In this document: positions 30,374-49,671 of the stretch, piece after piece
Position numbering within the stretch: position 1 is the first letter of the stretch
Layout of the letters: every line of letters begins with the position of its first letter
From: Escherichia phage FritzSarasin
Reading direction: 5' to 3' (one strand)
Length of the DNA: 51,777 nt
Sequence record: MZ501069
Made by a program: the position numbers and the translations under genes
The notes under the pieces: model-generated
The model's input: the letters and a program-made list of their open reading frames with translations, nothing else
Databases searched by the model: none
Told to the model about the DNA's origin: nothing

Positions 30374-30792
30374 TGGCTATAACTGATAAAGGCGATTATC
30401 TTGAGTTTTACGAAAGGGATCCAACCGACACGAGAAGGGAAGTTAATCACCAGATAGATAGTTTTCAGTGGTTGACTTATGCTCATCCTTATTTGCTGGC
30501 GTGGCATACGGTAAACGAGAATGAGAAGTCTAAAGTAACGGCGATGATTGATCAGCAGTCCGGCTTGGTTAAGGGAGTAAGCGATTTCATCATCCTGATT
30601 GGTTTAAACGGAAAATACCCCTTTGCAGCGATTGAGATCAAACGAGTGAATAAATCAGGCAAGGGGAAAGCATCACCAGTCAGCGATGAACAAAAGGCTT
30701 TTTTGCGTCGCGTTCGCAGCTTAGGAGGATTCGCTGCGGTAGCCTACGGATTCAATCAGTTTAAGTTGGCTATTGAATACATGCTTAAATAG
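30373..30792 (+). CDS. VRR-NUC domain nuclease
   Basis: 139 aa; core GVSDFIILIGLNGKYPFAAIEIKR fits the D...E.K pattern; start overlaps helicase stop. Confidence 0.55.
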   Translation: MAITDKGDYLEFYERDPTDTRREVNHQIDSFQWLTYAHPYLLAWHTVNENEKSKVTAMIDQQSGLVKGVSDFIILIGLNGKYPFAAIEIKRVNKSGKGKASPVSDEQKAFLRRVRSLGGFAAVAYGFNQFKLAIEYMLK

Positions 30793-30808
30793 CACTTTTT
30801 GTTAAAAC
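30788..30808 (+). promoter_or_regulatory. conserved promoter-module motif copy (rightward)
   Basis: AATAGCACTTTTTGTTAAAAC, inverted repeat GGCGCGATGGATTGCGCC, CATAAT; contains stop TAG of the upstream gene; Dam ATG 85 nt downstream. Confidence 0.6.
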
Positions 30809-30872
30809 TGGCGCGATGGATTGCGCCATAATTCAATAACACGAGATGGCTTTTAATAGCGGAGAAATGAAA

Positions 30873-31598
30873 ATGGCTAAAGATATTTTAGATAAAGACA
30901 CCCATGACGCATTCGTTAGCTTTGAGCAGTTGGAGAGAGAAACGTTTATAGGGAATGCCCTTGCAACTGGAGGCCATTACCAGGCAGTAAAGCCAAATCA
31001 ATATTATAAGGTAAGCGGAAACCGATACGCTGGAAGCACTACGCCGGACGTTGTGCGCGATATGTGGAGTACGCCTCAAGAGATCGTGGAGTGGATGGAA
31101 TCAGAATTTGGTGAATACGATCTCGACGCGGCAGCAAGCCAGGAAAACGCAGTTTGCGAGAAGTTCTATAGCAAGGAGACAAACTGCTTAAAGCGTTGGT
31201 GGGGTAGCAACAAGCACGTATGGCTTAACCCGCCGTACAGCAACCCAACTCCATTTATCAAGAAAGCAATTGAGCAAATGGAGCACAACAACCAAATTGA
31301 TGTTTTGTTGCCAGCAGACAACTCTACAGCATGGTTTTATGAGGCGCAGAAAAACGCGGCTGAAATCATCTGGATCACTGGTGAGGTTTACGAAGAGGGT
31401 GGAGTAGAATACTCCCGCACCGGAAGAATCGCCTTTGTGTCTGGATTGACTGGCGAGCCTGTGCAGGGCAACAACAAGGGAAGCGTGATTTTTGTCATGC
31501 GCAAACTTAAAGAAGGCGAGGAGCAGAAAACGCGATACGTTAAGATCAGCGATATTTGCCCTTCTGTAACCGAACGTCGCGCACGCAAACGGAGCTAA
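30873..31598 (+). CDS. dam: DNA N6-adenine methyltransferase (Dam-like)
   Basis: About 241 aa from ATG 30873 (GGAG RBS); NPPY catalytic motif and DLDAAAS block. Confidence 0.75.
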   Translation: MAKDILDKDTHDAFVSFEQLERETFIGNALATGGHYQAVKPNQYYKVSGNRYAGSTTPDVVRDMWSTPQEIVEWMESEFGEYDLDAAASQENAVCEKFYSKETNCLKRWWGSNKHVWLNPPYSNPTPFIKKAIEQMEHNNQIDVLLPADNSTAWFYEAQKNAAEIIWITGEVYEEGGVEYSRTGRIAFVSGLTGEPVQGNNKGSVIFVMRKLKEGEEQKTRYVKISDICPSVTERRARKRS

Positions 31599-31602
31599 CA
31601 CG

Positions 31603-31860
31603 ATGGAAAAAGAGAGAAGCGTTTATTTAAATGAAACTGGCGAGTGGTTGTTATTTCGCGCTATGGTGTGCGATGCACTTGATAAAAACCCTAACGTGAA
31701 AAAGATGATTGATTGCGATCCGTGGGAATTTTCAAGCGCATTAGATATGAGCTTTGAGGAGACAAGAAAACTCCCGCTTGAAAAATGGCACGAACAAATC
31801 AGAAATGACATGCAAGAGTTTGTCGATTCGTGGAATTTTCAGCACGGAATGATCCACTAA
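31603..31860 (+). CDS. hypothetical protein
   Basis: 85 aa with GGAG RBS; stop TAA embedded in the next motif copy. Confidence 0.55.
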   Translation: MEKERSVYLNETGEWLLFRAMVCDALDKNPNVKKMIDCDPWEFSSALDMSFEETRKLPLEKWHEQIRNDMQEFVDSWNFQHGMIH

Positions 31861-31879
31861 TAGCACTTTTTGTTAAAAC
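31859..31879 (+). promoter_or_regulatory. conserved promoter-module motif copy (rightward)
   Basis: AATAGCACTTTTTGTTAAAAC, hairpin GCCCGGCCTAGTGTCGGGC, CATAAT; ATG 77 nt downstream. Confidence 0.6.
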
Positions 31880-31935
31880 GCCCGGCCTAGTGTCGGGCAT
31901 AATTATTTCAACGAAGCAAACATGAGGAAATAAAA

Positions 31936-32115
31936 ATGGTGGTATTCGATAAACGCGCTTTTAATCTTGCTCAAGAAGTAGCAAAAGGTTCAGTGGATGG
32001 CGGTTCAAAGGAAGGATTCCAGTTTGATTGGGAGATCGCAATGTTTTTACTGAAAGTTGCATACGGTCACGCACCAATTGAACAAGCGGAGGCATATTAT
32101 AAGCATGAAGGTTGA
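31936..32115 (+). CDS. hypothetical small protein (not in ORF track)
   Basis: 59-aa ORF with GAGGA RBS at the expected distance from the motif copy. Confidence 0.4.
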   Translation: MVVFDKRAFNLAQEVAKGSVDGGSKEGFQFDWEIAMFLLKVAYGHAPIEQAEAYYKHEG

Positions 32116-32347
32116 GCAAGGAAGAGATGCGGTATGGAATCACGCTAAAGAATGCGGTATTGCCGACGATATAAAGAAGATCGCGCAATACTTTGATATT
32201 GCAGATGTGAGCATAATTAGCGGCGACAAGATGACTTTCCTCAAGGAAAGGCCGCGAAAAATGGTAAGAGTTCCAGCAGTTCCAACAAAAATTGATTTCA
32301 AAGAGGCAATGGCTAAAATCCGAGAGCCTCGCAAATATTATAAATGA
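32105..32347 (+). CDS. hypothetical protein
   Basis: 80 aa from ATG 32105 (MKVEQGRD...); overlaps previous small ORF. Confidence 0.4.
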   Translation: MKVEQGRDAVWNHAKECGIADDIKKIAQYFDIADVSIISGDKMTFLKERPRKMVRVPAVPTKIDFKEAMAKIREPRKYYK

Positions 32348-32441
32348 GGATAGTTATCATGTGGCGCTTGTTTGTTCTACCGTTACCCGTTATCATCGCT
32401 GTTACAGTTATGTACCATATAGTGATGAGATAGGTAGCAGA

Positions 32442-34803: not shown

Positions 34804-34819
34804 TGCCTCCTTTATTTTT
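34794..34819. terminator. bidirectional terminator
   Basis: AAAAA-GGAGGCTTAATGCCTCC-TTTATTTTT between convergent spanin and leftward gene. Confidence 0.6.
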
Positions 34820-35042
34820 ATGCGTCGGGCCACATATGAGTTTCGTTTGTTGGCTTGTTCGATTCGTCATACTGCCTTACTTCAATGCTGCAAGTGTCGC
34901 CATACATTTCTGCAATCTTGCGCTCATTTTCAACAGCCGATTGCTCACTCCATCCAAAATCCCTGTCATAAATTGTCGGGATTTCAGCAGAAGATCCGTT
35001 GTCATGATTATATACGCGAACTACTAAAAACTTGCTGGACAT
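34818..35042 (-). CDS. hypothetical protein
   Basis: 74 aa; driven by the leftward motif module at 35103-35123. Confidence 0.55.
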   Translation of the reverse strand: MSSKFLVVRVYNHDNGSSAEIPTIYDRDFGWSEQSAVENERKIAEMYGDTCSIEVRQYDESNKPTNETHMWPDA

Positions 35043-35102
35043 AATTTTACCTTTTGGTTGTTTCGTTTCGATGAAACAAATATACCCGACACTAGGCCGG
35101 GC

Positions 35103-35123
35103 GTTTTAACAAAAAATGCTATT
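35103..35123 (-). promoter_or_regulatory. conserved promoter-module motif copy (leftward)
   Basis: Minus-strand reading AATAGCATTTTTTGTTAAAAC + GCCCGGCCTAGTGTCGGG + TATAT; nearly identical to the inverted copy at 31859. Confidence 0.6.
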
Positions 35124-35239
35124 CCATACGCTTTACCGTAACCAGTAATACACCATCATCATTGCATAAAACATGTTCAGTGGTGCTAAAAGCGCGCATA
35201 TCTGAATAAAGTATCGTAAGTAAAGCATGAATAAAATCC

Positions 35240-35635
35240 TCATGTGATATTGAATTTACGGCGCAGTGCTTCAAGATCTTGTCTATTAGCTTTTGCCTGG
35301 AACAATTCATCATCGCCCATCTCCCCTATTCTAGCCATATCCCTGATCCAGTCGTTGCGCATACCATCCAGGCTATACAATTCGAATCCGAAAGGCCGCT
35401 TTGACGATCCTTTGGACCAGTATTTACCGCAGACCCCATCTATATAGCCAGCCGTCATCATTCTTGCGCAAAATTCCTTAGATGCAAGGCTGGCGAACAT
35501 TCGCGGCGTAAGTCCGGCGGCCCGTGCGAGCCGCTCACATTCTCTATGATGATAGATAAATTTGGCTATGTGCTGCCTGTTAAACCAGTCGTATGACTCA
35601 CACCATTTATACAGATCAAGCAAAAACATAATCAT
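35240..35635 (-). CDS. hypothetical protein, coupled to upstream P-loop ATPase
   Basis: About 131 aa; start overlaps stop of the ATPase gene (ATGA); no recognisable motif. Confidence 0.5.
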   Translation of the reverse strand: MIMFLLDLYKWCESYDWFNRQHIAKFIYHHRECERLARAAGLTPRMFASLASKEFCARMMTAGYIDGVCGKYWSKGSSKRPFGFELYSLDGMRNDWIRDMARIGEMGDDELFQAKANRQDLEALRRKFNIT

Positions 35636-37212
35636 CCCAGCAGTATTGGATTGACAAAAATAACACCATTAATCACACAAACATAATTTCTTTCTTCCAG
35701 CATTGGCAGCAAGTGCCCTTCTATCCTCTTCATTACGCCAGCTTGACCAACGAAAGGTTTTACCTTTCTCGCTGATTCGTACAGGGCGCGAATATTCAGA
35801 ATCCCTTTATTAGCCTTGCCGTGTCTAGTGATCAATTCAATCAATTTGCCCATTTCAGCATCATCACCAGCATAACCAGAAGCATTGGCGGCGCTAATGT
35901 ATGTTTTGCTCAATTCCTGAAACATGATCAGCGCCTCTTGCATTGTTTCCACGTCGATCTCTTTCGACTTCTGCGGGTATCCAGCAGGATTAAACCAGTT
36001 GCGGATAACATGCAGGACGGAAGCAAGCCTGATCACCTGTTTATCCATTTTACCCAGCGCACCGCGTAACATTGTATGAGAATACTTTCCGCCGTCTGCA
36101 AGATGCGGTTCCATATCCTGGCGAGCAATGTTGAGCACTCGCATAGCTGAACGGCTTATTTTCAGCGATATATTTGATTCGCTCATGATGTTATGCACCA
36201 ATTGATAATATTGGGCCTTCAATTCAGGATCCACCGCCTCATAGGTAGAATCACCATTTTCATCAATGAATGAGCGACGGCCTAAGAATGATTCCTCACG
36301 GACCAACAAAAAGCGCTCACTCACACCGATACCGCGCGATCCAGCGTCCATGATTCCGCTTATCGTTTCATCCTGGGCTATAACGCTCATACATCCAAGT
36401 GCGCGAAAACTCATGTTATTGTCAGCATTAGCACGGGCAATTGATACGTGACCATTATCCCACGCCTTAAGCACTAGCTCGCTGTTAGTCTTCCTTTCGC
36501 TATTGGCATAGGTCAAGCCTAACAGGCTGTTAATACTTGTTGCTTCGTCAGATATTACGGCAAAGTTACCTTGCTTGTTGTTGATTTTCGCCAAGCCTTC
36601 TGGAGTGGTATCTGAAACAGGGAAAGTTATATCACACATCTTTTCCAGCTTCTCCTCCAGATCCTCTTTTTCCTGGTATAGAGATTCCATATCAGCGCCT
36701 GATCTTTCGCTTTTCATCTCCTTTGCAAGACCTGCCAACTTTGCCTGTATTTTCTTTCTTTCCTTGCGGCGTTGCTCGTTGATCTTCTCAACTTCCGCAA
36801 TCATCGGAGCAATAGCCATACTGTTGATCGCAGATTTACCAGTTGACGGCGGCTGGCTTGTAACTACGTAAAGCGCAGTCGGCTGATCGGTTCCGTGATA
36901 GTCAACTGTAAAGCGCCCAAGCATAGCGGCAGAAATGCAGCCGATAAAGTGCATGTAAGCCGATGATTCAGGGAATTGAACTGATCGCGCAATGCTGCGT
37001 GATAACTTGCCGACAACATCAATATCATTACCAAGAGAAATTACGGGGTAGCGATCGTGACCGCTATTTACATCCTTTACGTCGCCCCAAAAGCTGGACG
37101 ACTGGCGATAGCCGTTAGCCTGAATTGATACGCGAACTGGCGAAAGGTTCTGGCTTTCAGCCATAGCGATTATTTGCTGTGGAGTTAATTTGTTCGTTTC
37201 TAATGAAAACAT
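35632..37212 (-). CDS. P-loop NTPase of unknown function (DUF3987-like, unverified)
   Basis: 526 aa; Walker A-like PPSTGKS and Walker B-like AVISDEA; charged coiled-coil segment; long C-terminal domain with no recognisable motif. Confidence 0.6.
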   Translation of the reverse strand: MFSLETNKLTPQQIIAMAESQNLSPVRVSIQANGYRQSSSFWGDVKDVNSGHDRYPVISLGNDIDVVGKLSRSIARSVQFPESSAYMHFIGCISAAMLGRFTVDYHGTDQPTALYVVTSQPPSTGKSAINSMAIAPMIAEVEKINEQRRKERKKIQAKLAGLAKEMKSERSGADMESLYQEKEDLEEKLEKMCDITFPVSDTTPEGLAKINNKQGNFAVISDEATSINSLLGLTYANSERKTNSELVLKAWDNGHVSIARANADNNMSFRALGCMSVIAQDETISGIMDAGSRGIGVSERFLLVREESFLGRRSFIDENGDSTYEAVDPELKAQYYQLVHNIMSESNISLKISRSAMRVLNIARQDMEPHLADGGKYSHTMLRGALGKMDKQVIRLASVLHVIRNWFNPAGYPQKSKEIDVETMQEALIMFQELSKTYISAANASGYAGDDAEMGKLIELITRHGKANKGILNIRALYESARKVKPFVGQAGVMKRIEGHLLPMLEERNYVCVINGVIFVNPILLG

Positions 37213-37264
37213 TCGTTAGCTTCTCCTTTGTGGGCCGTAAATTTTAACGGCCCAATACTACCCC

Positions 37265-37285
37265 GTTTTGTCAAAAAGTGCTATT
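37265..37285 (-). promoter_or_regulatory. conserved promoter-module motif, variant with TTGACA (leftward)
   Basis: Minus-strand reading AATAGCACTTTTTGACAAAAC, 22 nt, TAAAAT inside hairpin GGGCCG...CGGCCC; ATPase ATG 74 nt downstream. Confidence 0.55.
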
Positions 37286-37502
37286 TGATCCGCTCTATTG
37301 CAACCAGAAGTCGATCAGGCTGGCGGTCGCTGTAGCATTCTCCTGTAATCCCATCCTTAAACGTAAAGTAAAGCGCCTTATGATATGAAAAACCAATCAG
37401 CCAACCTACCGCCGTTTTTTTGATGGGCCTGACTATATCGCCAGGCTTGAAAGTCTTTGTGGTAGAATTCGTTACTTTGTAACGGTTTTCACTGTTTATC
37501 AC
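37281..37502 (-). CDS. hypothetical small protein (KxGD motif)
   Basis: 73 aa; contains FKPGDIV motif. Confidence 0.5.
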   Translation of the reverse strand: MINSENRYKVTNSTTKTFKPGDIVRPIKKTAVGWLIGFSYHKALYFTFKDGITGECYSDRQPDRLLVAIERIK

Positions 37503-37885
37503 AGATATTTGCCCTCAAACAGATAACAGCCGCCAGCAGAGAATCCGACCTCTTCACGGTACAGGTTCCAGCGGTCGCCGCACTCATCAAAAACATAACC
37601 CGCAACGCTTCCAAGCGGTCGCCCTTTCTCGATCTGGTATCGCTTGCCCTGCTTAAAGTGCTTTTTGCACGGCATGTTATGATCTACAAACGTGCAAAGA
37701 ACGGTTTTTGTGTTAATGGCGCGGTAATCATCTCGGTTTGCTGGAATCCAGCGACTACCCTTAACAAGCGTCTTAACTTGGAACTCTTCCACCTCGATCA
37801 CATCATCACTTCCTGCAATCTTCTGATAAACCGTTTTAAAACGGCCTTTCATCAATACGTTGGTTTCATTACAGATAACATTCAT
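37499..37885 (-). CDS. hypothetical protein
   Basis: 128 aa; driven by motif module at 37939-37959. Confidence 0.55.
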   Translation of the reverse strand: MNVICNETNVLMKGRFKTVYQKIAGSDDVIEVEEFQVKTLVKGSRWIPANRDDYRAINTKTVLCTFVDHNMPCKKHFKQGKRYQIEKGRPLGSVAGYVFDECGDRWNLYREEVGFSAGGCYLFEGKYL

Positions 37886-37938
37886 GATCAGATCTCCTTT
37901 GTTTGTTCGATGTGATTATGCCAGGTTTTTACACCTGG

Positions 37939-40807: not shown

Positions 40808-40863
40808 TTTGAAAATCCTCTGTTTCGTTTCGATGCGCTTACTATACCAATCAGCAGCGCATC

Positions 40864-42109: not shown

Positions 42110-42167
42110 TGCTATCTCCTGAGCGGTTCGTTTCGATGTGTGTAATGTACCCGATCAGACGGCCTGA

Positions 42168-42188
42168 GTTTTAACAAAAAGTGCTATT
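42168..42188 (-). promoter_or_regulatory. conserved promoter-module motif copy (leftward)
   Basis: Minus-strand reading AATAGCACTTTTTGTTAAAAC, about 22 nt, TACATT; ATG about 80 nt downstream. Confidence 0.55.
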
Positions 42189-42742
42189 TGACGGTTAGCG
42201 CCAGGATTGTGATCGAAATAATCAAAAGTAATCATTCGTAATCAAATCAAGTCAAAATGATGATTGCCTTTGCAAATTTGATGAGAAAAGTAATCACGTT
42301 TAATCATTGGTTGCAGGGGAGATAGTGAAACCTTCCCCTCTTGCCTCACTTTTTTGCCTGGCTGTCAGTGGTTGTTGTCTTTTGTTCACCCCTGTTACCG
42401 ATTTCAGGCGGCGTGTTTCCGCGCGGTTTTCCGGTGTAGCGAAAACGGAAAAAACAAAGAAAATCCTTTATAATACATTGAAAATAAAGATTATTTATTT
42501 ATATATATCTATAATGTTTTCTTTTTGTTCTCACTGTTACAGTGCTTTTTGTTGGTTATGGTGTGGTTGTGTGTGGGCATATATGGATAGTTGCGCGCGC
42601 GGCGGATTGCATATGTATATATACTTTTTCCGGCGGATTGCGTTAACAGCGTGAACAGAAAAATAACAGCCGTGAAATCAATAACTTGCGCATGATTTTG
42701 TAGTTTTTTGATATTGGTAACGTTTTGAATACAACAAAAACA

Positions 42743-42801: not shown

Positions 42802-43266
42802 ATGGAACAGAAGACCACTAAGGACTATTGCGATTGGCTTCGCGAGCTTGGTCGCCGCCTGGCTAGTGGCGATATTGAAGAGTATAAAATGTCACTAATT
42901 GACCTGGCCGGAATGTTAAGCGGTGACGACTGCTACAAGATCACGCGCAGTTCATCCTACAGCCGGACCATTATCAACCGCGTTCCAGAAGTAAGGGCCG
43001 CAGGTCGGGTAAGTATCAAGGTCGAGGAAACGGAAGATGATAAATTTTACGTTTTCCGCATGGTGCGCGAATCGAAAAGGAAAATCATCACACCCGAAGA
43101 ATTGCCAGCCATAAAGGCAAGGGCGATCAAAAAGTTTGCCGATCGCTTACTGGCAGCAATCCCGAACATCGTGGACCTGGAGGGTGATAAACTGGCTGGA
43201 GCTTGTGAGGGCGTAAGCCGCTACCAGGATATGATTCGCGAAATCATCAAAGAGGAGGAGCAATAA
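42802..43266 (+). CDS. hypothetical early protein
   Basis: 154 aa from ATG 42802 (RBS GGAGGAAAGG); track start 42769 lies inside the -10. Confidence 0.55.
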   Translation: MEQKTTKDYCDWLRELGRRLASGDIEEYKMSLIDLAGMLSGDDCYKITRSSSYSRTIINRVPEVRAAGRVSIKVEETEDDKFYVFRMVRESKRKIITPEELPAIKARAIKKFADRLLAAIPNIVDLEGDKLAGACEGVSRYQDMIREIIKEEEQ

Positions 43267-43526
43267 TGAAAAAGGCATTAATCGGCGTTTTGGCGGCAAT
43301 GACACTCCTGACCGGATGCGAAAAGGCATCAGAATCAACGGTTGTCGTAGGCGTGGAGTCAGATTTCAAAGTCGGTCGCCTGTTCACTGTTGACGGATGC
43401 ACAGCATACAGATTCTATGATAACGGTCGCGCGATCTATTACACCAATTGCAAAGGCGCAACGGATAGCACGTACAACAGCGGAAAGAACGTAATGCACC
43501 AGCAAGTCACAACAGATATTAAATAG
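43266..43526 (+). CDS. putative lipoprotein
   Basis: 86 aa; signal peptide with lipobox LLTGC; stop TAG embedded in the next motif copy. Confidence 0.6.
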   Translation: MKKALIGVLAAMTLLTGCEKASESTVVVGVESDFKVGRLFTVDGCTAYRFYDNGRAIYYTNCKGATDSTYNSGKNVMHQQVTTDIK

Positions 43527-43542
43527 CACTTTTTGTTAAAAC
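43522..43542 (+). promoter_or_regulatory. conserved promoter-module motif copy (rightward)
   Basis: AATAGCACTTTTTGTTAAAAC + hairpin GCCAGGCGCAAAGCCTGGC + CATAAT; ATG 77 nt downstream. Confidence 0.6.
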
Positions 43543-43598
43543 GCCAGGCGCAAAGCCTGGCATAATAGCCTCATCGAAACGAGATTGAGGAAACAAAA

Positions 43599-43784
43599 AT
43601 GGCACGTCGCATCACCAAAGACCTTAAAGTCCTGAACAAAGAAAACGTAGTTAAAATCCTAGTTATCTGGGGCTACAACGAAGAAACAGCAAAGCAGAAG
43701 GTAGAGGCGGGTTATGACCTGGCTGTAAAAGCAATGCCAAACGACGACGCCAAAGGCATTGCAAACTATGTAGCTTTCTTTTAA
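43599..43784 (+). CDS. hypothetical small protein
   Basis: 61 aa with RBS GAGG. Confidence 0.5.
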   Translation: MARRITKDLKVLNKENVVKILVIWGYNEETAKQKVEAGYDLAVKAMPNDDAKGIANYVAFF

Positions 43785-43799
43785 TTAGCAGGTGAATAA

Positions 43800-43985
43800 A
43801 TGAAAACGAAATTAGTCCATAAATCAGAAATCAAGATCGGCGATACTGTGATTCACAACGGAGAGCTTAGAACGGTTGGCAAAGAGTCAATAAGCCACGA
43901 TGAATTTATGGGGATCTTGTTGTTCGGTGACTCTTATCGTCTTGGTTACAAGATGGTTGAGCTTGTGGAAGAAGTGAAATTCTAA
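43800..43985 (+). CDS. hypothetical small protein
   Basis: 61 aa; stop TAA embedded in the next motif copy. Confidence 0.5.
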   Translation: MKTKLVHKSEIKIGDTVIHNGELRTVGKESISHDEFMGILLFGDSYRLGYKMVELVEEVKF

Positions 43986-44005
43986 ATAGCACTTTTTGTT
44001 AAAAC
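43985..44005 (+). promoter_or_regulatory. conserved promoter-module motif copy (rightward)
   Basis: AATAGCACTTTTTGTTAAAAC then CCAGGCATAAT. Confidence 0.55.
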
Positions 44006-44084
44006 TCAAAAACGATAACCAGGCATAATAAATCACATAGGGCGGCACGGCGTCGCCCAGTTAAACCAATCAGGAGAAAGCACC

Positions 44085-44978
44085 ATGTTAAAACTTGCTG
44101 ACATTAAATTCCCGATCACCTTCGAATCTCGTGGTGTTGGTCATTACGTTTTTACCGATGAGAAAACATGCCATAACGTTTGGTTGCACAGCGATAAGTT
44201 AAGCCCATCAACAATGGAGATTCAGCACTTTATTGATGCGCATAATCAGCACTACAACTCAATCCGTGACTACGGCTACGCAATGCCAGGCTACACATGC
44301 TTGCACTACAAGCCATATAAGGGCCAGGTGTTACCAGTGCGCTCACCGGAACGTGCAGAGATTCCGATGGTCCACATGAAAACCTGCGACTACAAAAAGC
44401 TGTGGTGCTTAAGTGTGGACAATATCAAGTATCCGATCACGTTCTACACGGTTGGTAATTCAACGATTCGCTTCACATCGCGCGACAATGGCGTTTATAG
44501 CGATGGTACGAAATCAGAGTTGAAAGTTGATTTCTTTGTCAACGGTCACAACAAATTCAATCCGCACAACGAAGAGGATAAAGTGTACTACGTGGAAGAC
44601 ATTACAAAACACTTGTTTGGAGAAACTCCATTCGGCGGCGGAAAGACGTCAATTCAAAAAATCATTGGCGAGGAGATCCACAAAGCGGCTGCCGAAATGA
44701 AAGCGCCTGGAGGCTGGCGTATTGATAAGAGCGCCTTTGCAAATCAAGAAATCGTAACGCAGGGCGCGATTGAAGATATGCCAGTTGCAGCCACGCTAAA
44801 AGGAGTCCGGCTTGATGATGGTGTGTGGTTTGAAGTAACGGCCACACCAAAGACGATCGAGATTCATGATGATGTTGTTATCCTCCTGCTTCACTACGGC
44901 GGCACTAAAAATCGGACTGTTGCAGGTGAGATCAGCATCAAGCGCGGAACGATGGTTAAGTGGAAGGTGAAGATTTGA
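44085..44978 (+). CDS. hypothetical protein with internal tandem repeat
   Basis: 297 aa; N-terminal repeats IKFPITFESRGVGHYVFTDEKT and IKYPITFYTVGNSTIRFTSRDNG. Confidence 0.6.
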   Translation: MLKLADIKFPITFESRGVGHYVFTDEKTCHNVWLHSDKLSPSTMEIQHFIDAHNQHYNSIRDYGYAMPGYTCLHYKPYKGQVLPVRSPERAEIPMVHMKTCDYKKLWCLSVDNIKYPITFYTVGNSTIRFTSRDNGVYSDGTKSELKVDFFVNGHNKFNPHNEEDKVYYVEDITKHLFGETPFGGGKTSIQKIIGEEIHKAAAEMKAPGGWRIDKSAFANQEIVTQGAIEDMPVAATLKGVRLDDGVWFEVTATPKTIEIHDDVVILLLHYGGTKNRTVAGEISIKRGTMVKWKVKI

Positions 44979-45054: not shown

Positions 45055-45207
45055 ATGGCTACCTGGATTTTGCTGATTCTTATGATTGATGGCGGCGTTG
45101 ACCATATCGAAATGAATAGCCAGCAATCTTGCATTGAGGCACGAGAACAGATCAAGAACGACAACAGGTTTTATGCGTACACTCACACGCTATGTATTAA
45201 GAAATAG
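45055..45207 (+). CDS. putative small membrane peptide (not in ORF track)
   Basis: 50-aa ORF with RBS GAGGTGAGAG; hydrophobic N-terminus; stop TAG embedded in the next motif. Confidence 0.35.
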   Translation: MATWILLILMIDGGVDHIEMNSQQSCIEAREQIKNDNRFYAYTHTLCIKK

Positions 45208-45223
45208 CACTTTTTGTTAAAAC
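45203..45223 (+). promoter_or_regulatory. conserved promoter-module motif copy (rightward)
   Basis: AATAGCACTTTTTGTTAAAAC + GGGGCCAGG TATAAT GGCC; ATG 74 nt downstream. Confidence 0.6.
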
Positions 45224-45276
45224 TCAAATGTGGGGCCAGGTATAATGGCCTCACTTTCAACGAAGGAGATAAAACG

Positions 45277-45507
45277 ATGTACATTAAAAAGAAGATGAAA
45301 TGCGTTTCCGTTAACTATGCTTGCTCTGGTATGTTCAAGCCTGGCGAAATCTATACAGCGCAAAAACTGAAATCATCAACCGGATCTTTTTACGTGAGCA
45401 ATAGTAAGGGGCATCGCATGTTCCTGAACGGCGGCGAAGGCACTAAGGTTATGGCACACGCTATGGTAATGGCTGAATTTGAGGAAGTGAAAGATGAAAA
45501 CAAATAA
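45277..45507 (+). CDS. hypothetical small protein (FKPGEIY motif)
   Basis: 76 aa from ATG 45277 (RBS AAGGAG); track start 45214 lies inside the promoter module. Confidence 0.5.
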   Translation: MYIKKKMKCVSVNYACSGMFKPGEIYTAQKLKSSTGSFYVSNSKGHRMFLNGGEGTKVMAHAMVMAEFEEVKDENK

Positions 45508-45726: not shown

Positions 45727-46269
45727 ATGAAAAAATACACTTTCGAACTGTGGGGCAAAAAGTACGAATTAATCACCAGCAAGCCGATTGTTATCGTTGA
45801 CCTGGACGGCACACTATCGGACGGATCGCATCGTTTGCATTTGCTGCCAACTGAAAACTTGCACCTTACGGAATCGTGGCGCGAGTTTAACAGGGCCGCC
45901 GCCGGAGATTCACCTATTAAAAGCACTATCGCGGTTATTAACGGTTTATGGGTGTCGGGATTTGCCATCGTCATCTTGACCGGACGCAGCGACGAGGTTC
46001 GCTATGAAACCTGCAAATGGTTGAATGAGAACGGCGTGAAGTTTGACGAAATCATCATGCGCCGCCAGGAGGACAACCGAAAGGATACGGTTATCAAAGA
46101 AGAAGCCTTGCGCGCTATTGGCCTGGACAACATTGTTTGCGCCTTTGACGATTCGCCGAACGTGGTTAAGCACTTCCGCAGCCTGGCAATCACAACCTAT
46201 CAGGTCACGGAATACGACAAGCCGCACGCTCACCTGCAATCTCACGGCGTGGAGGAGTTGCAGAAATGA
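45727..46269 (+). CDS. HAD-superfamily phosphatase (nucleotidase / polynucleotide 3-phosphatase-like)
   Basis: About 180 aa; HAD motif I IVIVDLDGTLSDG, motif II ILTGR, C-terminal FDDS. Confidence 0.6.
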   Translation: MKKYTFELWGKKYELITSKPIVIVDLDGTLSDGSHRLHLLPTENLHLTESWREFNRAAAGDSPIKSTIAVINGLWVSGFAIVILTGRSDEVRYETCKWLNENGVKFDEIIMRRQEDNRKDTVIKEEALRAIGLDNIVCAFDDSPNVVKHFRSLAITTYQVTEYDKPHAHLQSHGVEELQK

Positions 46270-46475
46270 TCCTGAATGTAGCATATGCTAACCCTCGCGG
46301 CTGCAATATATACGGCTTTAAGGTTGGCGCGATGGTCAACGCCAGGATAAACGAAAAAGGCGTATTAGTTGTCAAGTCCCCTAAAACTGGCATGGATATG
46401 CGCATCAAGGAGAACGGCGGAAGATTGTTTATCAGGTCAATATCTGGTCAAACGCTCGCAACGTTCACAAAATAG
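46266..46475 (+). CDS. hypothetical small protein
   Basis: 69 aa; stop TAG embedded in the next motif copy. Confidence 0.5.
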   Translation: MILNVAYANPRGCNIYGFKVGAMVNARINEKGVLVVKSPKTGMDMRIKENGGRLFIRSISGQTLATFTK

Positions 46476-46491
46476 CACTTTTTGCAAAAAC
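46471..46491 (+). promoter_or_regulatory. conserved promoter-module motif copy (rightward)
   Basis: AATAGCACTTTTTGCAAAAAC + hairpin GGGCTTGCGGTATAGTAAGCCC. Confidence 0.6.
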
Positions 46492-46546
46492 AGATTATCG
46501 GGCTTGCGGTATAGTAAGCCCATCGACAACGAAAGAGGAAGCGGCG

Positions 46547-46846
46547 ATGTTAGTACGCAATGCGATTTATAAATTCACAAACGAGATGGGGGTTCACCTT
46601 TACCACGTAAACCATCAAGGCAACACCTCAATCGCGATGTATCGCGACGCTCGCGGGAAGTGTAGGCCTTCTCTGCGTGGCAGAATTTCTCCTGCGTTCT
46701 TCATGTTTAGATGGTATGCAACAGAACAAAGCAACCATAACCATTGGAATAAAGTATTGATTGCAGGAGGCCGAATTGTTGCCAGTCACGTAGTCGATCC
46801 TTGCAAACTAACCAGTCGCCAGCTTCGCAAAATGGCGCGCAAATAG
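46547..46846 (+). CDS. hypothetical protein
   Basis: 99 aa; flanked by near-identical modules at 46471 and 46842. Confidence 0.5.
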   Translation: MLVRNAIYKFTNEMGVHLYHVNHQGNTSIAMYRDARGKCRPSLRGRISPAFFMFRWYATEQSNHNHWNKVLIAGGRIVASHVVDPCKLTSRQLRKMARK

Positions 46847-46861
46847 CACTTTTTGTTAAAA
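46842..46861 (+). promoter_or_regulatory. conserved promoter-module motif copy (rightward)
   Basis: AATAGCACTTTTTGTTAAAA + hairpin CGGCTTGCGGTATAGTAAGCCC. Confidence 0.6.
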
Positions 46862-46917
46862 TCAACTTTACGGCTTGCGGTATAGTAAGCCCATCAACAA
46901 CAAACGAGGATTAAATC

Positions 46918-47181
46918 ATGGCTAACAAGATCGAGTTTTTTAAAGCGGTAGACATTATCGACGGCGCGCCTAGCTTCTTTGCCATCCATTCTATTGACGG
47001 CAAGGATATTGGGTACAACGTTATCCGTCGAGATGGAATCTCAAAACTTAGTGATCTGGTAGGTCATGTTGTGGCAAACGGTAAATGTGCATGGCCCGAT
47101 TCACCGCGAGAGCCACGCCGCCGCGACATGGTAGAGCCTGTTCTGCTTTACACTCTGTTAGTAGAAGGAGAAAATAAATGA
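46918..47181 (+). CDS. hypothetical protein
   Basis: 87 aa with RBS GAGGA. Confidence 0.5.
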   Translation: MANKIEFFKAVDIIDGAPSFFAIHSIDGKDIGYNVIRRDGISKLSDLVGHVVANGKCAWPDSPREPRRRDMVEPVLLYTLLVEGENK

Positions 47182-47423: not shown

Positions 47424-47576
47424 ATGATGCGTAACTTTGAAAAAATCATTACCAAAAAGAAGCTTCGCGGGTACGATGAGCATGTGGAGCTTGTGAAAAA
47501 GCAACGCAAGAAGCGCAACGAAGACAAGAAGCGCGGGAAAAAATTTAATGCGATTTTTCGCTATGGAGGAAACTAA
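47424..47576 (+). CDS. putative small basic protein (not in ORF track)
   Basis: 50-aa K/R-rich ORF directly after a G10 homopolymer; stop abuts next ATG. Confidence 0.3.
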   Translation: MMRNFEKIITKKKLRGYDEHVELVKKQRKKRNEDKKRGKKFNAIFRYGGN

Positions 47577-47768: not shown

Positions 47769-47770
47769 TC

Positions 47771-48361
47771 ATGAAACGAGACATTATCATCCTTAATGGG
47801 CCTCCAGGTTGCGGGAAGGACACTATTGCAGCTTACCTAACGGGCCATCGTTACCCAGCGGTTAAGGCATCGTTCAAGCAACCTATGTTCGACATTGCTT
47901 TTTCTATGCTTGGCCCGACTCGATACGATGAATTTATGGATCTGTACAACGACCGAGAGCAAAAAGAAAAGCCTCAAGTTATCTTAGGCGGCAAGTCACC
48001 TCGACAATTCATGATCTGGATTAGCGAGGATGTAATGAAGCCAGTTTTTGGGGATCACTATTTCGGGCGTCGAATGGTTGAAGAGATTCACGAGATGTAC
48101 CGAGATTTGGCGGTTGTGATCAGTGATGGCGGATTCCCCGAAGAAATCAAGCCGCTTGTTAAGGAAGGGCATGAAGTGCATATTTGCCGATTGCATCGCG
48201 ACGGCTTCACGTTTGCTGGCGATTCGAGAGACTACATTGACCTGAGCGGTTATCACTATCGAATCCATCACTATGACTTCCAATTGCAGGACGGCAAGCC
48301 GGAAATGGCTGTAAACGAGATCGTCAATACGGTCAAATGGAAGCACACACAGATTAAATAG
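47771..48361 (+). CDS. P-loop kinase, dNMP-kinase-like
   Basis: 196 aa; N-terminal P-loop ILNGPPGCGKDT; later VISDGG and HICRLHR blocks resemble phage dNMP kinases (from memory). Confidence 0.55.
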   Translation: MKRDIIILNGPPGCGKDTIAAYLTGHRYPAVKASFKQPMFDIAFSMLGPTRYDEFMDLYNDREQKEKPQVILGGKSPRQFMIWISEDVMKPVFGDHYFGRRMVEEIHEMYRDLAVVISDGGFPEEIKPLVKEGHEVHICRLHRDGFTFAGDSRDYIDLSGYHYRIHHYDFQLQDGKPEMAVNEIVNTVKWKHTQIK

Positions 48362-48376
48362 CACGAATTGCTAAAC
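48357..48376 (+). promoter_or_regulatory. conserved promoter-module motif, variant copy (rightward)
   Basis: AATAGCACGAATTGCTAAAC + hairpin GCGGGGTTATCTGCCCCGC + TATAAT; ATG 75 nt downstream. Confidence 0.55.
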
Positions 48377-48431
48377 GCGGGGTTATCTGCCCCGCTATAA
48401 TGCGCACATCAACAAGCAAGAGGAAATTACA

Positions 48432-48812
48432 ATGGTTAACATCCGAAAAATCCGCGTCGGCACTAAATTCTTAGTTACTTATGCAATTCCCGATAGCGGA
48501 ATGAAGAAGGGCCAGATTGTTAAGGTTGATAGCAAAAGGTTCGGAATCCCTGGTATCAATGGCTATCTAATCAATAAAGATCTTGGATTCGACGGCTTCG
48601 CTATCCGTGCGCTTGAGGGTATTGTTGCCACTCTTAAGCGAATCACTAATCATCGCGGTTGTCCAATCAAGACGATTAAAGCGCCAATAAATTACGGCAA
48701 ACTGGATAATCGTCGAATCCGCCGCCTGGCGCGTAACGCGTTAAAATTCCGTGGCGTAGGCGATGATTTCTACTATGGATACAAGAGGATTGCGCGCAAT
48801 GCTGGGAAATAA
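48432..48812 (+). CDS. hypothetical protein
   Basis: 126 aa; basic. Confidence 0.55.
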   Translation: MVNIRKIRVGTKFLVTYAIPDSGMKKGQIVKVDSKRFGIPGINGYLINKDLGFDGFAIRALEGIVATLKRITNHRGCPIKTIKAPINYGKLDNRRIRRLARNALKFRGVGDDFYYGYKRIARNAGK

Positions 48813-48911
48813 CAATAACGCAACGAATCCTAAGCCACCTTTTGATTTTCATTCCGCAATGATTGCGGTATTATCAATGCTACTTTTTCTTTATAGCATG
48901 AGGGCGCTACT

Positions 48912-49160
48912 ATGGTTTTTAACGCATTGAAACGACTGTTTAAGCCGGAATACCGGATCGTATTTTGCCGCGACTGTTCTACTTATCATGTGCAGCGACG
49001 CAGCTTAGGCGGCAATTGGCACTATGTTACAGACGACTTTTTCGGCATCATTGCCACTGAATTTAAGTATTACAGTGATGCTTATATGTACGTCAAGAAT
49101 CGCCACCGCTTACGCAAGTGTCGTTTTTCCGTGCTGATTCACGTTAATGATTGTTACTGA
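48912..49160 (+). CDS. hypothetical protein
   Basis: 82 aa ORF. Confidence 0.45.
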   Translation: MVFNALKRLFKPEYRIVFCRDCSTYHVQRRSLGGNWHYVTDDFFGIIATEFKYYSDAYMYVKNRHRLRKCRFSVLIHVNDCY

Positions 49161-49167
49161 GGTGAAA

Positions 49168-49350
49168 ATGAAAACTGGCATTATTATTCTTTTTCTGATC
49201 CTTTTCGGCAGCTATTTAACCATTAACTATGAGGGCATTATGGCCTTTTGGGGCAACTTGATGATGTTTACCGCTGGTTCGATTGCTGGCTACTCTGACG
49301 GGAAAAAGGATGGCGTTCGCAAGATGCTGATGGGGCTTAAACAAAAATAA
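49168..49350 (+). CDS. putative small membrane protein
   Basis: 60 aa from ATG 49168 (RBS GAGGTGAAA); two hydrophobic segments. Confidence 0.4.
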   Translation: MKTGIIILFLILFGSYLTINYEGIMAFWGNLMMFTAGSIAGYSDGKKDGVRKMLMGLKQK

Positions 49351-49361
49351 GGGGATCTGAA

Positions 49362-49652
49362 ATGGCAAACAAAACTTACCGCAAACTACTGGTTAACGCT
49401 TTTGAAAATATCGCGCAGTGTAACAAGTGGAACGACTCTAAACACTCGCCAATCACAATGAAGCGCGCCGGATTCAAAAATGCTCGTTCATGGGCGCGAG
49501 CTTTCGCAGCTTGCTATATGCCGGATGGTGGACTAGGAGCGATGAACGAGTTTTTGATCAACATGATAGAGGAAGCTGCGCGAGAGGATCGACCGCTGAC
49601 ACAGCGAGATTTTGATGATTTCGCGCGCGATGAGCTTTACTATCTGAGCTAA
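49362..49652 (+). CDS. hypothetical protein
   Basis: 96 aa; stop TAA embedded in the next motif copy. Confidence 0.5.
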   Translation: MANKTYRKLLVNAFENIAQCNKWNDSKHSPITMKRAGFKNARSWARAFAACYMPDGGLGAMNEFLINMIEEAAREDRPLTQRDFDDFARDELYYLS

Positions 49653-49671
49653 TAGCACTTTTTGTTAAAAC
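49651..49671 (+). promoter_or_regulatory. conserved promoter-module motif copy (rightward)
   Basis: AATAGCACTTTTTGTTAAAAC + hairpin GGGCATTTGGTAAAGTGCCC; ATG 77 nt downstream. Confidence 0.6.

What the first reader, a model, noticed from the sequence alone, without database searches (positions are those of the whole stretch)
30788..49654. Stop codons of upstream genes are built into the motif
In at least 11 cases the upstream gene ends on the TAG or TAA inside the motif start (AAA-TAG-CAC or TAA-TAG-CAC): 2096, 30792, 31860, 43526, 43985, 45207, 46475, 46846, 48361, 49652 and others. Each cassette is therefore an ORF ending exactly where the next promoter module starts. That arrangement would be kept if cassettes are exchanged by recombination within the motif.
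Basis: seen in the sequence. Interest (0 to 1): 0.55.

Follow-up and report, generated by a model that had tools for sequence, protein, structure and literature searches.

The report
Stop-codon-bearing promoter cassettes shuffle T1-like genes
In this T1-like coliphage, most early genes end on a stop codon that is part of a repeated ~80-base promoter-like unit in front of the next gene, and comparison with sister phages shows that whole gene cassettes are gained, lost and swapped by crossovers inside these units, as is already known for T4-like phages.

Summary
The window is a near-complete Warwickvirus genome (Drexlerviridae, T1-like). It carries 21 copies of aaATAGCACnnnTTGnnAAAA. In 14 copies (15 with a doubtful ORF) a co-directional upstream gene ends inside TAAATAG. 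The TAG belongs to the motif: six copies with no upstream gene keep it, and all 9 TAG stops among ~89 genes are motif TAGs (0 of 75 elsewhere).

The motif is the published 21-nt direct repeat of TLS/T1-like phages, whose function is listed as unknown. Here it heads a fixed unit: core, N18 usually holding a hairpin, an extended -10-like element, a conserved leader, SD and ATG. This matches the PeSL cassettes of T4-like phages.

Comparison with 14 sister genomes supports cassette exchange:
- 15 of 50 breakpoints fall in modules covering about 6% of the region (p = 2e-7).
- 10 of 16 module junctions are hit, against 12 of 42 other gene junctions (p = 0.02).
- Five cassette polymorphisms leave chimeric modules, with crossovers in the core, the hairpin/-10 region or the leader.

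Most breakpoints still lie elsewhere (homing endonuclease insertions, microhomology deletions). Promoter activity is inferred, not shown. Verdict: a new member of a known kind.

The parts
2091..2112 (+). Motif copy (TAA variant, AAATAGCACTAATTGCTAAAAA). The large terminase gene 528..2096 ends on its TAG. It is followed by a terminator hairpin, not by the usual -10/leader.
6717..6738 (-). Orphan motif copy, antisense to the flanking + strand structural genes and next to a terminator. No upstream gene, yet the TAG is retained.
   Evidence: homologous position in T1 (15085-)
10471..10492 (-). Orphan motif copy, antisense, between the major tail gene terminator and the next gene. TAG retained.
   Evidence: T1 18849-
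21049..21121 (-). Module in front of gene 20776..21051, at the edge of the 495-nt divergent intergenic region. No upstream gene, TAG retained.
26737..26758 (+). Orphan motif copy, antisense to the flanking - strand genes. Its CAC is the reverse complement of the GTG start of ORF 24112..26745.
28298..28378 (+). Module in front of the helicase gene 28376..30373 (TAGCAT variant). Divergent region, so no upstream gene.
30787..30875 (+). Module. The VRR-NUC gene 30373..30792 ends on its TAG and the Dam gene follows. Phage BEK12A has a 455-bp gene inserted just after the -10 element (30836-30850).
31858..31938 (+). Module. Gene 31603..31860 ends on TAA, followed in frame by the motif TAG.
35040..35124 (-). 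Module in front of gene 34818..35042. The short ORF 35119..35313 ends on its TAG. Tonnikala lacks 34820-35116, with one deletion end inside the core.
37210..37286 (-). Module (TTGACA variant). Gene 37281..37502 ends on its TAG and the helicase gene 35632..37212 follows.
37883..37960 (-). Module. The Dcm gene (37955..) ends on its TAG. A replacement carrying an endonuclease gene in JK16/BEK12A ends in its leader (37892).
40080..40160 (-). Module H>G (AAG variant). Gene 40158..40565 ends on TAA at -4. The stretch CGCATCGA at 40103-40110 is one partner of the crossover that removes cassette H.
40805..40887 (-). Module I>H. Gene 40885..41148 ends on TAA at -4. The stretch CGCATCGA at 40830-40837 is the other partner of the H crossover.
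40158..40807 (-). Cassette H (two genes). Present in the window and tonnikala (also atuna and SECphi27), replaced by the 487-bp cassette U in nine relatives, and absent in four.
42107..42189 (-). Module in front of gene 41837..42109, in a divergent region with no upstream gene. Phage tunus has an extra 368-bp cassette 'a' here, with the crossover in the leader.
43521..43601 (+). Module. Gene 43266..43526 ends on its TAG. This is the left boundary of cassette K.
43599..43985 (+). Cassette K (two genes). Absent in JK16 and BEK12A, where the junction lies inside the 22-nt core.
43983..44087 (+). Module. Gene 43800..43985 ends on TAA at -4. Relatives have a 360-bp gene inserted between the -10 region and the start codon (44051-44067).
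45202..45279 (+). Module. Gene 45055..45207 ends on its TAG. Relatives show all four combinations of the TTT/GAA triplet with two different downstream genes, and the 230-bp deletion 44972-45201 ends here.
46470..46549 (+). Module M>N. Gene 46266..46475 ends on its TAG. It shares the hairpin/-10 stretch GGCTTGCGGTATAGTAAGCCCATC with the next module.
46547..46846 (+). Cassette N (one gene). Present only in the window and MikeNSara. Several genomes without it carry a chimera of the two flanking modules.
46841..46920 (+). Module N>O. Gene 46547..46846 ends on its TAG.
48356..48434 (+). Module (GAA variant, ATAGCACGAATTGCTAAA). The dNMP kinase-like gene 47771..48361 ends on its TAG.
49650..49730 (+). 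Module. Gene 49362..49652 ends on TAA, followed in frame by the motif TAG.
21547..22602 (+). PDDEXK (DUF3799) exonuclease-like gene. Together with the next entry it is the phage's own candidate recombination system.
   Evidence: E = 3.6e-13; T1 homologue annotated as exonuclease VIII
22939..23592 (+). ERF-family single-strand annealing protein gene.
   Evidence: E = 7e-20; T1 Erf-like protein

Best explanation
The repeated unit is a composite regulatory cassette of about 80 nt. It is built like the PeSLs (promoter-early stem-loops) of T4-like phages.

Its parts, in order:
1. The Drexlerviridae 21-nt repeat aaATAGCACnnnTTGnnAAAA, which by position would span -52 to -31.
2. An 18-nt spacer.
3. 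An extended -10-like element (G at -14, then TATAAT-like).
4. A G+C-rich hairpin in the spacer or around the -10.
5. A conserved leader beginning ATCGAAACGAAAC at the predicted start site.
6. A Shine-Dalgarno sequence and the start codon.

The TAG is a conserved base triplet of the DNA motif itself. Genes in this tightly packed genome end on it, or on a TAA made from the A-rich bases just before it. As a result no spacer is left, and every gene unit carries its own stop.

The modules are the only sequence shared between otherwise unrelated cassettes. Short-homology recombination between two modules (8 to about 50 nt of identity) deletes, inserts or swaps the genes between them. The phage's own ERF annealing protein and PDDEXK exonuclease probably catalyse this, or host functions may. 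Each event leaves one intact chimeric module, so stop codon, promoter-like element and ribosome-binding site are all preserved.

Shown here: the anatomy, the stop-codon overlap, the cassette polymorphisms and the chimeric junctions.
Inferred: promoter activity, the role of the hairpins, the enzymes involved, and the direction (gain or loss) of each event.
For: Anatomy:
- 21 copies with fixed spacing to a -10-like hexamer.
- Median TAG-to-ATG distance is 75 nt, and 17 of 21 copies are co-oriented with the downstream gene.
- Hairpins have z < -2 in 13 of 21 copies.

The TAG is intrinsic to the motif:
- It is kept in 6 window copies and 6 T1 copies that have no upstream gene.
- All 9 TAG stops in the genome are motif TAGs, against 0 of 75 elsewhere.

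Recombination:
- Cassette strings of 15 genomes show whole-cassette polymorphisms bounded by modules.
- The I>G module of the four genomes without H equals the 5' part of window module 40883 plus the 3' part of module 40156, joined in the shared CGCATCGA. The resulting 727-bp deletion has ambiguous ends, as expected between direct repeats.
- U gain and K loss have junctions in the core. N has its junction in the shared hairpin/-10. Cassette 'a' has its junction in the leader.
- Module 45205 shows all four gametes.
- 15 of 50 breakpoints lie in modules that cover about 6% of the region, p = 1.7e-7.
- 10 of 16 module junctions are hit against 12 of 42 other junctions, p = 0.02.

Other support:
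- ERF and PDDEXK genes are present.
- The PeSL definition and model match this arrangement (PMC2839356).
- The same module in the T4-like phage KP15 was annotated independently as a putative promoter.
Against: - No transcription data exist for any T1-like phage in the searched literature.
- TTGnnA lies 22 nt from the -10-like hexamer, too far for a sigma-70 -35 element. The consensus scan calls only one of the modules.
- Four copies sit beside terminators with no gene downstream, three of them antisense. A simple mRNA promoter does not explain these.
- 70% of breakpoints are not at modules.
- The junction test is only modestly significant, and module junctions are wider targets than other junctions.
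- The relatives share ancestry, so each polymorphism may reflect a single event.
- Breakpoints defined by BLAST are good to about +/-10 nt.
Confidence: 0.7

Rival explanations
1. Compaction and selection only. The stop overlap is a by-product of deletion bias in a headful-packaged genome that removes every dispensable base between a stop codon and a constrained motif. Breakpoints cluster at modules because only rearrangements that keep whole transcription units survive, not because modules recombine preferentially.
For: - Genes are tightly packed everywhere in the genome, with many overlapping stop/start junctions.
- Precise whole-gene deletions also occur at non-module junctions through 7-9-nt microhomology such as GCCATTA.
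- Enrichment over other gene junctions is only 4-fold, p = 0.02.
Against: - Junctions lie inside stretches that are identical between the two parental modules and produce exact chimeras. That is the signature of homology-guided exchange.
- Compaction alone predicts the three reading frames to be used equally. Instead about 28 gene ends are in frame with the TAG, against 8 and 1-3 in the other two frames.
Confidence: 0.15
2. The 21-nt core is not part of a host-RNA-polymerase promoter. It is the binding site of a dedicated phage or host protein: an activator centred near -41.5 that defines a delayed-early or middle class, or a repressor or 'stoperator'-like site. The TAG is then a recognition base. 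Cassette exchange at modules would still occur, as a side effect of the shared sequence.
For: - The core is asymmetric and more conserved than a -35/UP region needs to be.
- It spans -52 to -31 if the -10 assignment is right, which is an inference.
- There is no usable -35 element.
- The genome also has perfect consensus sigma-70 promoters at 42743 and 50941, which could be the immediate-early class.
- Orphan and antisense copies are conserved between the window and T1.
- The TLS authors raise stoperator, enhancer and UP-element readings and leave the question open (PMC11447400).
- The KP15 authors call the same module a putative middle promoter.
Against: - No candidate binding protein has been identified. 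The only annotated regulator is a Cro/YdaS-like HTH protein at 27812..28288, with a match below the Pfam threshold.
- The modules precede genes expected to be early, such as small ORFans.
- T1-like phages have no known MotA/AsiA-type system (own knowledge, not tested here).
Confidence: 0.3
3. Site-specific cassette system resembling an integron. The motif, whose GTTAAAAC superficially recalls the attC core GTTRRRY, together with the hairpin, would be the recombination site of a dedicated recombinase or nuclease that moves ORF cassettes.
For: - Cassettes are short ORFs, each followed by a conserved site with a hairpin.
- Insertions are flanked by direct repeats of the core (L003 486-bp insertion with a 20-nt repeat).
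Against: - Crossovers fall at different places in the module: core, hairpin/-10 and leader. This indicates homology-driven, not site-specific, exchange.
- No integrase or tyrosine/serine recombinase is annotated in any of the 14 relatives or in T1.
- The HNH endonuclease genes of relatives sit at non-module sites.
Confidence: 0.03

Closest known systems
PeSLs (promoter-early stem-loops) of T4-like phages RB49/phi1, and of T4/PST and KVP40/nt-1 (Arbiol et al. 2010, PMC2839356; Comeau et al. 2014, PMC4122927)
   Same: - The order of parts is the same: stop codon of the upstream gene in an A/T-rich stretch, promoter-like hexamers, a stem-loop between the hexamers or over the -10, a Shine-Dalgarno sequence and a start codon.
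- The units are concentrated among small ORFans.
- Indels between sister phages are bounded by the units and leave a single chimeric unit.
- The leader of the phi1 PeSL upstream of ORF053 (CATCAAGACGAGA) resembles the leader here (CATCGAAACGAGA).
- The T4-like phage KP15 carries near-identical modules.
   Different: - The host family here is Drexlerviridae (siphoviruses of about 50 kb).
- The 5' element is a sharply conserved 21-nt repeat in place of a consensus -35 with a 17-nt spacer.
- The TAG is part of that repeat.
- Promoter and terminator activity and mini-circles were shown experimentally for PeSLs, but not for these modules.
The 21-nt intergenic direct repeat of phage TLS and other T1-like phages (German, Kropinski, Misra and co-workers 2024, PMC11447400)
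   Same: - Same sequence (aaATAGCACnnnTTGnTAAAA).
- Same copy number (21 in TLS, 21 here).
- Same orientation with transcription, and the same distance of about 76 nt to start codons.
- The T, G and A triplet variants are seen here too.
   Different: - That paper treats only the 21-mer and leaves its function open (stoperator, enhancer site or UP element).
- In the sections read, it mentions neither the stop-codon overlap, the fixed -10/hairpin/leader downstream, nor a role in cassette exchange.
Boundary or linker sequences at gene junctions of mosaic lambdoid phages (own knowledge, not checked here)
   Same: Short conserved sequences at gene boundaries serve as crossover points between otherwise unrelated modules.
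   Different: Those are heterogeneous and not a single multi-copy promoter-like unit. The phages here are virulent.
Integron gene cassettes with attC sites
   Same: Small promoterless or single-ORF cassettes, each ending in a structured conserved site, arrayed head to tail.
   Different: No integrase is present. Crossovers here are homology-driven and spread over the module, and each cassette brings its own promoter-like element.

Membership tests
Drexlerviridae 21-nt direct repeat (TLS DR) | Consensus aaATAGCACnnnTTGnTAAAA in many copies per genome | tested here: met
   21 copies at up to 1 mismatch. 18 matches to the 19-mer against 0.05 expected.
Drexlerviridae 21-nt direct repeat (TLS DR) | Intergenic, in the direction of transcription, about 76 nt upstream of a start codon | tested here: met
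   17 of 21 copies are co-oriented with a downstream gene. TAG-to-ATG distance is 67-98 nt, median 75. Four copies are orphan or antisense.
Drexlerviridae 21-nt direct repeat (TLS DR) | Genome belongs to the T1-like phages | tested here: met
   95-98% identity to Warwickvirus genomes. The same motif is found in T1. In IMG/VR the motif is multi-copy in contigs that are mostly 46-53 kb long.
PeSL (T4-like mobile regulatory cassette) | Stop codon of the upstream gene lies in the A/T-rich 5' end of the unit | tested here: met
   14-15 of 15 co-directional upstream genes end within TAAATAG.
PeSL (T4-like mobile regulatory cassette) | Sigma-70 consensus -35 and -10 hexamers at canonical spacing | tested here: not met
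   The -10-like hexamer with G at -14 is conserved. However TTGnnA lies 22 nt upstream, and the consensus scan finds only 1 module.
PeSL (T4-like mobile regulatory cassette) | Stable stem-loop between the hexamers or over the -10 | tested here: met
   13 of 21 copies have z < -2 against shuffles, mean z -2.4. Stems lie in the spacer or enclose the -10. The T1 record annotates them as terminators.
PeSL (T4-like mobile regulatory cassette) | Shine-Dalgarno sequence and start codon at the 3' end | tested here: met
PeSL (T4-like mobile regulatory cassette) | Indels and replacements between sister phages are bounded by the units and leave chimeric units | tested here: met
   Cassettes H, U, a, K and N. 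Enrichment statistics.
PeSL (T4-like mobile regulatory cassette) | Demonstrated promoter and terminator activity; excised mini-circles | not testable with these tools
   Needs reporter assays, 5'/3'-end mapping and outward-facing PCR.
PeSL (T4-like mobile regulatory cassette) | Resident in a T4-like myovirus genome | tested here: not met
   The window is a Drexlerviridae siphovirus. Near-identical modules do occur in the T4-like phage KP15.
Integron attC cassette system | Integrase present and crossover at one fixed position of the core site | tested here: not met
   No recombinase is annotated in the relatives or T1. Crossovers occur at three different parts of the module.
Sigma-54 promoter (TGGCAC-N5-TTGC) | GG and GC separated by exactly 10 nt | tested here: not met
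   In TAGCAC-N3-TTG(C/T)T the separation is 8 nt, the first dinucleotide is AG, and most copies have TTGTT.

The most novel reading that the evidence does not exclude
The ATAGCAC...leader module may be a promoter cassette that itself moves between unrelated families of virulent enterobacterial phages. It occurs in many copies in Drexlerviridae, in at least two copies in the T4-like Slopekvirus KP15, and in one copy in a 149-kb contig. In this reading it works as an integrase-free gene-cassette system: any ORF placed between two modules automatically acquires a stop codon, a promoter, a leader and a ribosome-binding site. The cassette could then be excised as a mini-circle and re-inserted at any other module, in the same or another phage. 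The sharply conserved core would be read by a still unidentified factor rather than by sigma-70 region 4.
Probability: 0.2. Interest if true: 0.75.

Novelty: new member of a known kind. Interest (0 to 1): 0.5.

Why it matters
The 2024 re-annotation of phage TLS lists the function of the 21-base intergenic repeat among the open questions for T1-like phages. This analysis gives a concrete, testable answer. The repeat is the 5' end of a PeSL-like regulatory cassette. That cassette supplies the stop codon of the upstream gene and serves as a crossover point for gene-cassette gain, loss and replacement.

Three consequences follow:
- A mechanism so far documented only in T4-like myoviruses would extend to a second, very common family of virulent coliphages.
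- It would explain how the ORFan-rich early regions of these phages, which probably include host-takeover and anti-defence genes, turn over while remaining expressed.
- It points to sites where foreign genes could be inserted into T1-like phages without disturbing expression.

Tried and rejected
- **Standard sigma-70 consensus scan.** It does not recognise the modules. The simple reading 'TTGTTA is the -35' was therefore dropped, because the spacing is 22 nt.
- **Sigma-54 resemblance (TAGCAC..TTGC).** Rejected on spacing and sequence.
- **Integron or site-specific reading.** Rejected because the crossover positions vary and no recombinase is present.
- **First BLAST chains.** They mis-assigned short motif HSPs in L003, L005, L008, L009 and L012. 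This was repaired by recursive alignment, and for L008 by hand using the cassette map.
- **Literature searches.** Searches for the motif sequence, for Drexlerviridae transcription start sites and for T1 transcriptomes gave only the TLS paper. No experimental promoter data were found.
- **The 50-aa ORF of cassette U.** It is present in relatives but not in the window, and is shared at 46-62% identity with T4-like phages and with several other large-genome phages (112-152 kb). The similarity is too old to show module-mediated transfer.
- **IMG/VR single hits in 60-71-kb contigs (L043, L057, L073).** These are chance matches inside coding sequence with no -10 or leader.
- **Longest-ORF heuristic.** It picks some spurious read-through frames (offsets 29-560). 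These were not counted as gene ends.

Full report
**Identity of the window.** The 51.8-kb window is an essentially complete genome of a T1-like coliphage. It is 95-98% identical, with gaps, to Escherichia phages tonnikala, vB_EcoS-95, tonijn, tunus and others. These belong to Drexlerviridae, Tempevirinae, Warwickvirus. The window starts at the small terminase gene. The finding's span, 30.8-49.7 kb, covers the replication and ORFan-rich early regions.

**The observation.** The pattern TAGCACTTTTTGTTAAAAC has 18 matches at up to 3 mismatches, against 0.05 expected. With the looser pattern TAGCACnnnTTGnnAAA at up to 1 mismatch there are 21 copies.

- Nine genes end on the motif TAG: 2096, 30792, 43526, 45207, 46475, 46846 and 48361 on the + strand, and 37281 and 37955 on the - strand.
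- Two genes end on a TAA directly in front of and in frame with it: 31860 and 49652.
- Three genes end on a TAA one base in front (TAAATAG or TAAAAAG): 43985, 40885 and 40158.
- A fifteenth case, ORF 35119..35313, is doubtful.

No co-directional upstream gene stops 5-12 nt before the TAG.

Six copies have no upstream gene, because they lie in divergent regions or are antisense orphans. All six still carry the TAG. In an approximate set of 89 genes, the 14 motif-adjacent genes use 9 TAG and 5 TAA. The other 75 use 44 TAA, 31 TGA and no TAG. The TAG is therefore a base triplet of the motif that genes use as a stop. It is not a stop codon that happens to sit near a motif.

Phage T1, from another subfamily, has about 26 copies with the same anatomy and the same overlap. 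One T1 gene ends on the TAA inside TTGCTAAAA. Another ends on a TAA in the nnn triplet, where the TAG has mutated to CAG. Pooled over distinct gene ends in the window, 14 relatives and T1, about 28 are in frame with the TAG, 8 are in the -4/-1 frame and 1-3 are in the third frame. Pure compaction would not produce that skew.

**Anatomy of the unit.** Aligning the 17 gene-associated copies on the TAG gives this consensus: AAATAGCACTTTTTGTTAAAAC, 18 variable nt, G-G-(T/C)ATAAT-like, about 6 nt, cAtcgAaAcgaAa, GAGGA, ATG. The TAG-to-ATG distance has a median of 75 nt.

The variable stretch usually forms a G+C-rich hairpin, either within the spacer or enclosing the -10-like hexamer. Thirteen of 21 copies have z < -2 against shuffles. 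The T1 GenBank record annotates these hairpins as rho-independent terminators.

If the hexamer is a -10 element, three things follow by inference. The conserved leader starts at the predicted +1. The 21-22-nt core spans -52 to -31, centred near -41.5. The TTGnnA sits 22 nt from the -10, too far for a sigma-70 -35 element. In line with this, a consensus scan does not call these sites, although it does find two perfect sigma-70 promoters at 42743 and 50941. Promoter function is therefore plausible but unproven, and the class of promoter is open.

**What is already known.** The 21-mer is published. The 2024 re-annotation of phage TLS describes 21 copies of aaATAGCACnnnTTGnTAAAA, 18 of them intergenic, oriented with transcription and about 76 nt upstream of start codons. 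The repeat is also present in T1, Rtp and Rogue1. The authors consider stoperator, enhancer-site and UP-element readings, and list its function as an open question (PMC11447400). A full-text search found no other paper that combines the motif with Drexlerviridae, and no transcription-start data for T1-like phages.

The overall architecture matches the PeSLs of T4-like phages. In PeSLs the stop codon of the upstream gene lies in an A/T-rich stretch. It is followed by a sigma-70-like promoter, a stem-loop between the hexamers or over the -10, a Shine-Dalgarno sequence and a start codon. PeSLs sit in front of ORFans, and recombination between them produces indels and mini-circles (PMC2839356). 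The 2014 follow-up covers T4-like phages only.

**Test of the recombination idea.** I fetched the homologous 23-25-kb region of 14 Warwickvirus genomes and aligned each to the window.

Fifty distinct breakpoint clusters were found. Fifteen lie in the 16 modules of the region, which make up about 6% of the sequence (binomial p = 1.7e-7). Against the stricter null of gene junctions, 10 of 16 module junctions are hit, compared with 12 of 42 other junctions (one-sided Fisher p = 0.02). Module junctions are wider targets, so this test is only moderate evidence.

Stronger evidence comes from cutting all 15 genomes at their motifs and clustering the pieces. Whole cassettes bounded by modules are polymorphic.
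- Between cassettes I and G there is H (708 bp, in the window and tonnikala), U (487 bp, in nine genomes) or nothing (four genomes).
- Cassette 'a' (368 bp) occurs only in tunus.
- Cassette N (352 bp) occurs only in the window and MikeNSara.
- Cassette K (444 bp) is missing in JK16 and BEK12A.

The junctions are chimeric modules.
- **H.** In the four genomes without H or U, the I>G module is identical to window module 40883 through ...GTATAGTAAGCGCATCGA. From CGCATCGACAACAAACG... onwards it is identical to window module 40156. The crossover therefore lies in the shared 8-nt CGCATCGA (window 40830-40837 and 40103-40110). The 727-bp deletion aligns ambiguously, as expected between direct repeats.
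- **U.** It is flanked by direct repeats of the 19-nt core, so the crossover was in the core.
- **K.** The upstream gene end of module 43524 is joined to the spacer of module 43987 inside the 22-nt core.
- **N.** Several genomes that lack N carry the 5' half of module 46473 joined to the leader of module 46844. The junction lies within the shared GGCTTGCGGTATAGTAAGCCCATC.
- **a.** The crossover lies in the leader CATCGAAACGAACCGC.
- **Module 45205.** The nnn triplet (TTT or GAA) and the downstream gene (ATGTACATT... or ATGGAAAGT...) occur in all four combinations. This requires exchange within the roughly 50 shared nucleotides between them.

Single-gene insertions in BEK12A (455 bp at 30836) and in tunus and relatives (360 bp at 44051) sit immediately after the -10 region of a module.

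**What does not fit the simple picture.** Thirty-five of the 50 breakpoints are not at modules. They fall into three groups.
- HNH homing-endonuclease insertions in relatives: near 35252-35278, 37492-37892, and within dcm at 38311-38669.
- Divergent allelic patches.
- Precise gene deletions through 7-21 nt of microhomology, for example GCCATTA. This is the reverse complement of the TAATGGC stop/start overlap.

Short-homology recombination is thus general in this region. The modules are simply its longest and most frequent substrates.

The phage encodes an ERF-family annealing protein (22939-23592, E = 7e-20) and a PDDEXK exonuclease-like protein (21547-22602). Such systems are known to act on short homologies (own knowledge). 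Their involvement here is an inference.

**Wider distribution.** An exact-pattern scan of IMG/VR finds the motif in many copies, mostly in contigs of 46-53 kb. Three single hits in 60-71-kb contigs are chance matches inside genes. Two others are complete modules. One is in Klebsiella phage KP15, a T4-like Slopekvirus of 174 kb. There the sequence is TAATAGCACTTTTTGTTAAAAC-N18-TATAGT, with a hairpin and the leader CATCGAAAC. The depositors annotated it as a 'putative middle promoter', and a second variant copy lies about 350 nt away. The other is in a 149-kb contig. The phi1 PeSL in front of ORF053 has a canonical -35 element but a similar leader. The module family is therefore not confined to Drexlerviridae. 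This keeps open the idea that the cassette itself moves between phage families.

**Verdict.** The recombining unit is the whole module. Module exchange accounts for a substantial minority of the rearrangements. The stop-in-motif arrangement is explained first of all by the TAG being part of the motif.

The system is best filed as a PeSL-like mobile regulatory cassette in a new phage family. Its 5' element is the already published, functionally unassigned T1-like repeat. It fails one PeSL criterion, the canonical -35 at 17 nt. Its promoter, terminator and mini-circle properties remain untested.

Noticed in passing
window 6717-6738 (-), 10471-10492 (-), 26737-26758 (+), 2091-2112 (+): Four motif copies lie next to rho-independent terminator hairpins in the structural and primase regions. 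Three are antisense to the flanking genes and have no ORF downstream. Equivalent antisense copies exist in T1 (15085-, 18849-, 34903+), so they look conserved and functional. They might make short antisense RNAs or act as protein-binding sites.
   Followed up: partly
whole window: TAG is used as a stop codon only at the motif (9 of 9). The other 75 genes use TAA (44) or TGA (31) and never TAG.
   Followed up: yes
window 39445-39599, 39607-39879, 47569-47765; 43323-45421: Whole-gene deletions in relatives at non-module junctions use 7-9 nt of microhomology at translationally coupled junctions (GCCATTA, the reverse complement of TAATGGC). JLBYU19 has a 2.1-kb deletion with a 17-nt overlap inside two genes.
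   Followed up: partly
window 35252-35278, 37492-37892, 38311-38669 (sites in relatives L001, L012, L013, L014): Relatives carry HNH/EndY homing-endonuclease genes inserted at these sites, one of them inside the dcm methylase gene. The window lacks them. They account for several non-module breakpoints.
   Followed up: partly
window 47405-47423: A run of ten G residues (AAAGGGGGGGGGGAATG) forms the ribosome-binding region of gene 47424..47576. Such a homopolymer could vary in length or be a sequencing problem.
   Followed up: no
window 21052-21546: A 495-nt A/T-rich divergent intergenic region holds several sigma-70-like promoters (for example TTGACT-N17-TACAAT) and short TGTATGTATATA-type repeats. 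It may be a control or origin region.
   Followed up: no
window 42743-42770 and 50941-50969: Two consensus or near-consensus sigma-70 promoters (TTGACA-16-TATAAT, 12 of 12 matches; TTGACA-17-TAGCAT) coexist with the motif modules. This suggests two promoter classes, and perhaps two temporal classes.
   Followed up: no
L137 (Klebsiella phage KP15, GU295964) 1350-1460 and 1700-1800; L023 1030-1180: Complete T1-type modules (core, hairpin, -10, CATCGAAAC leader) occur in a T4-like Slopekvirus, where they are annotated as putative middle promoters, and in a 149-kb viral contig. Only the module is shared with Drexlerviridae, not the flanking genes.
   Followed up: partly
L006 12867-13019 (cassette U of relatives; absent from the window): A 50-aa ORF (MVTLITWEHENSQ...) is found in Drexlerviridae and Kagunavirus, in T4-like phages such as Phi1 (ORF053, 62% identity), and in several large-genome phages of 112-152 kb. 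It is a very widely shared small early gene. One record labels it an anti-RM protein.
   Followed up: partly
window 26743-26745: The GTG start of the 877-aa ORF 24112..26745 is the reverse complement of the motif's CAC.
   Followed up: no
L016 (T1) 46085-46624: The T1 HNH endonuclease gene ST8 reads straight through a whole module (motif at 46157-) and ends at the start of the next gene. An endonuclease ORF has evidently been inserted upstream of, and fused across, a module.
   Followed up: no
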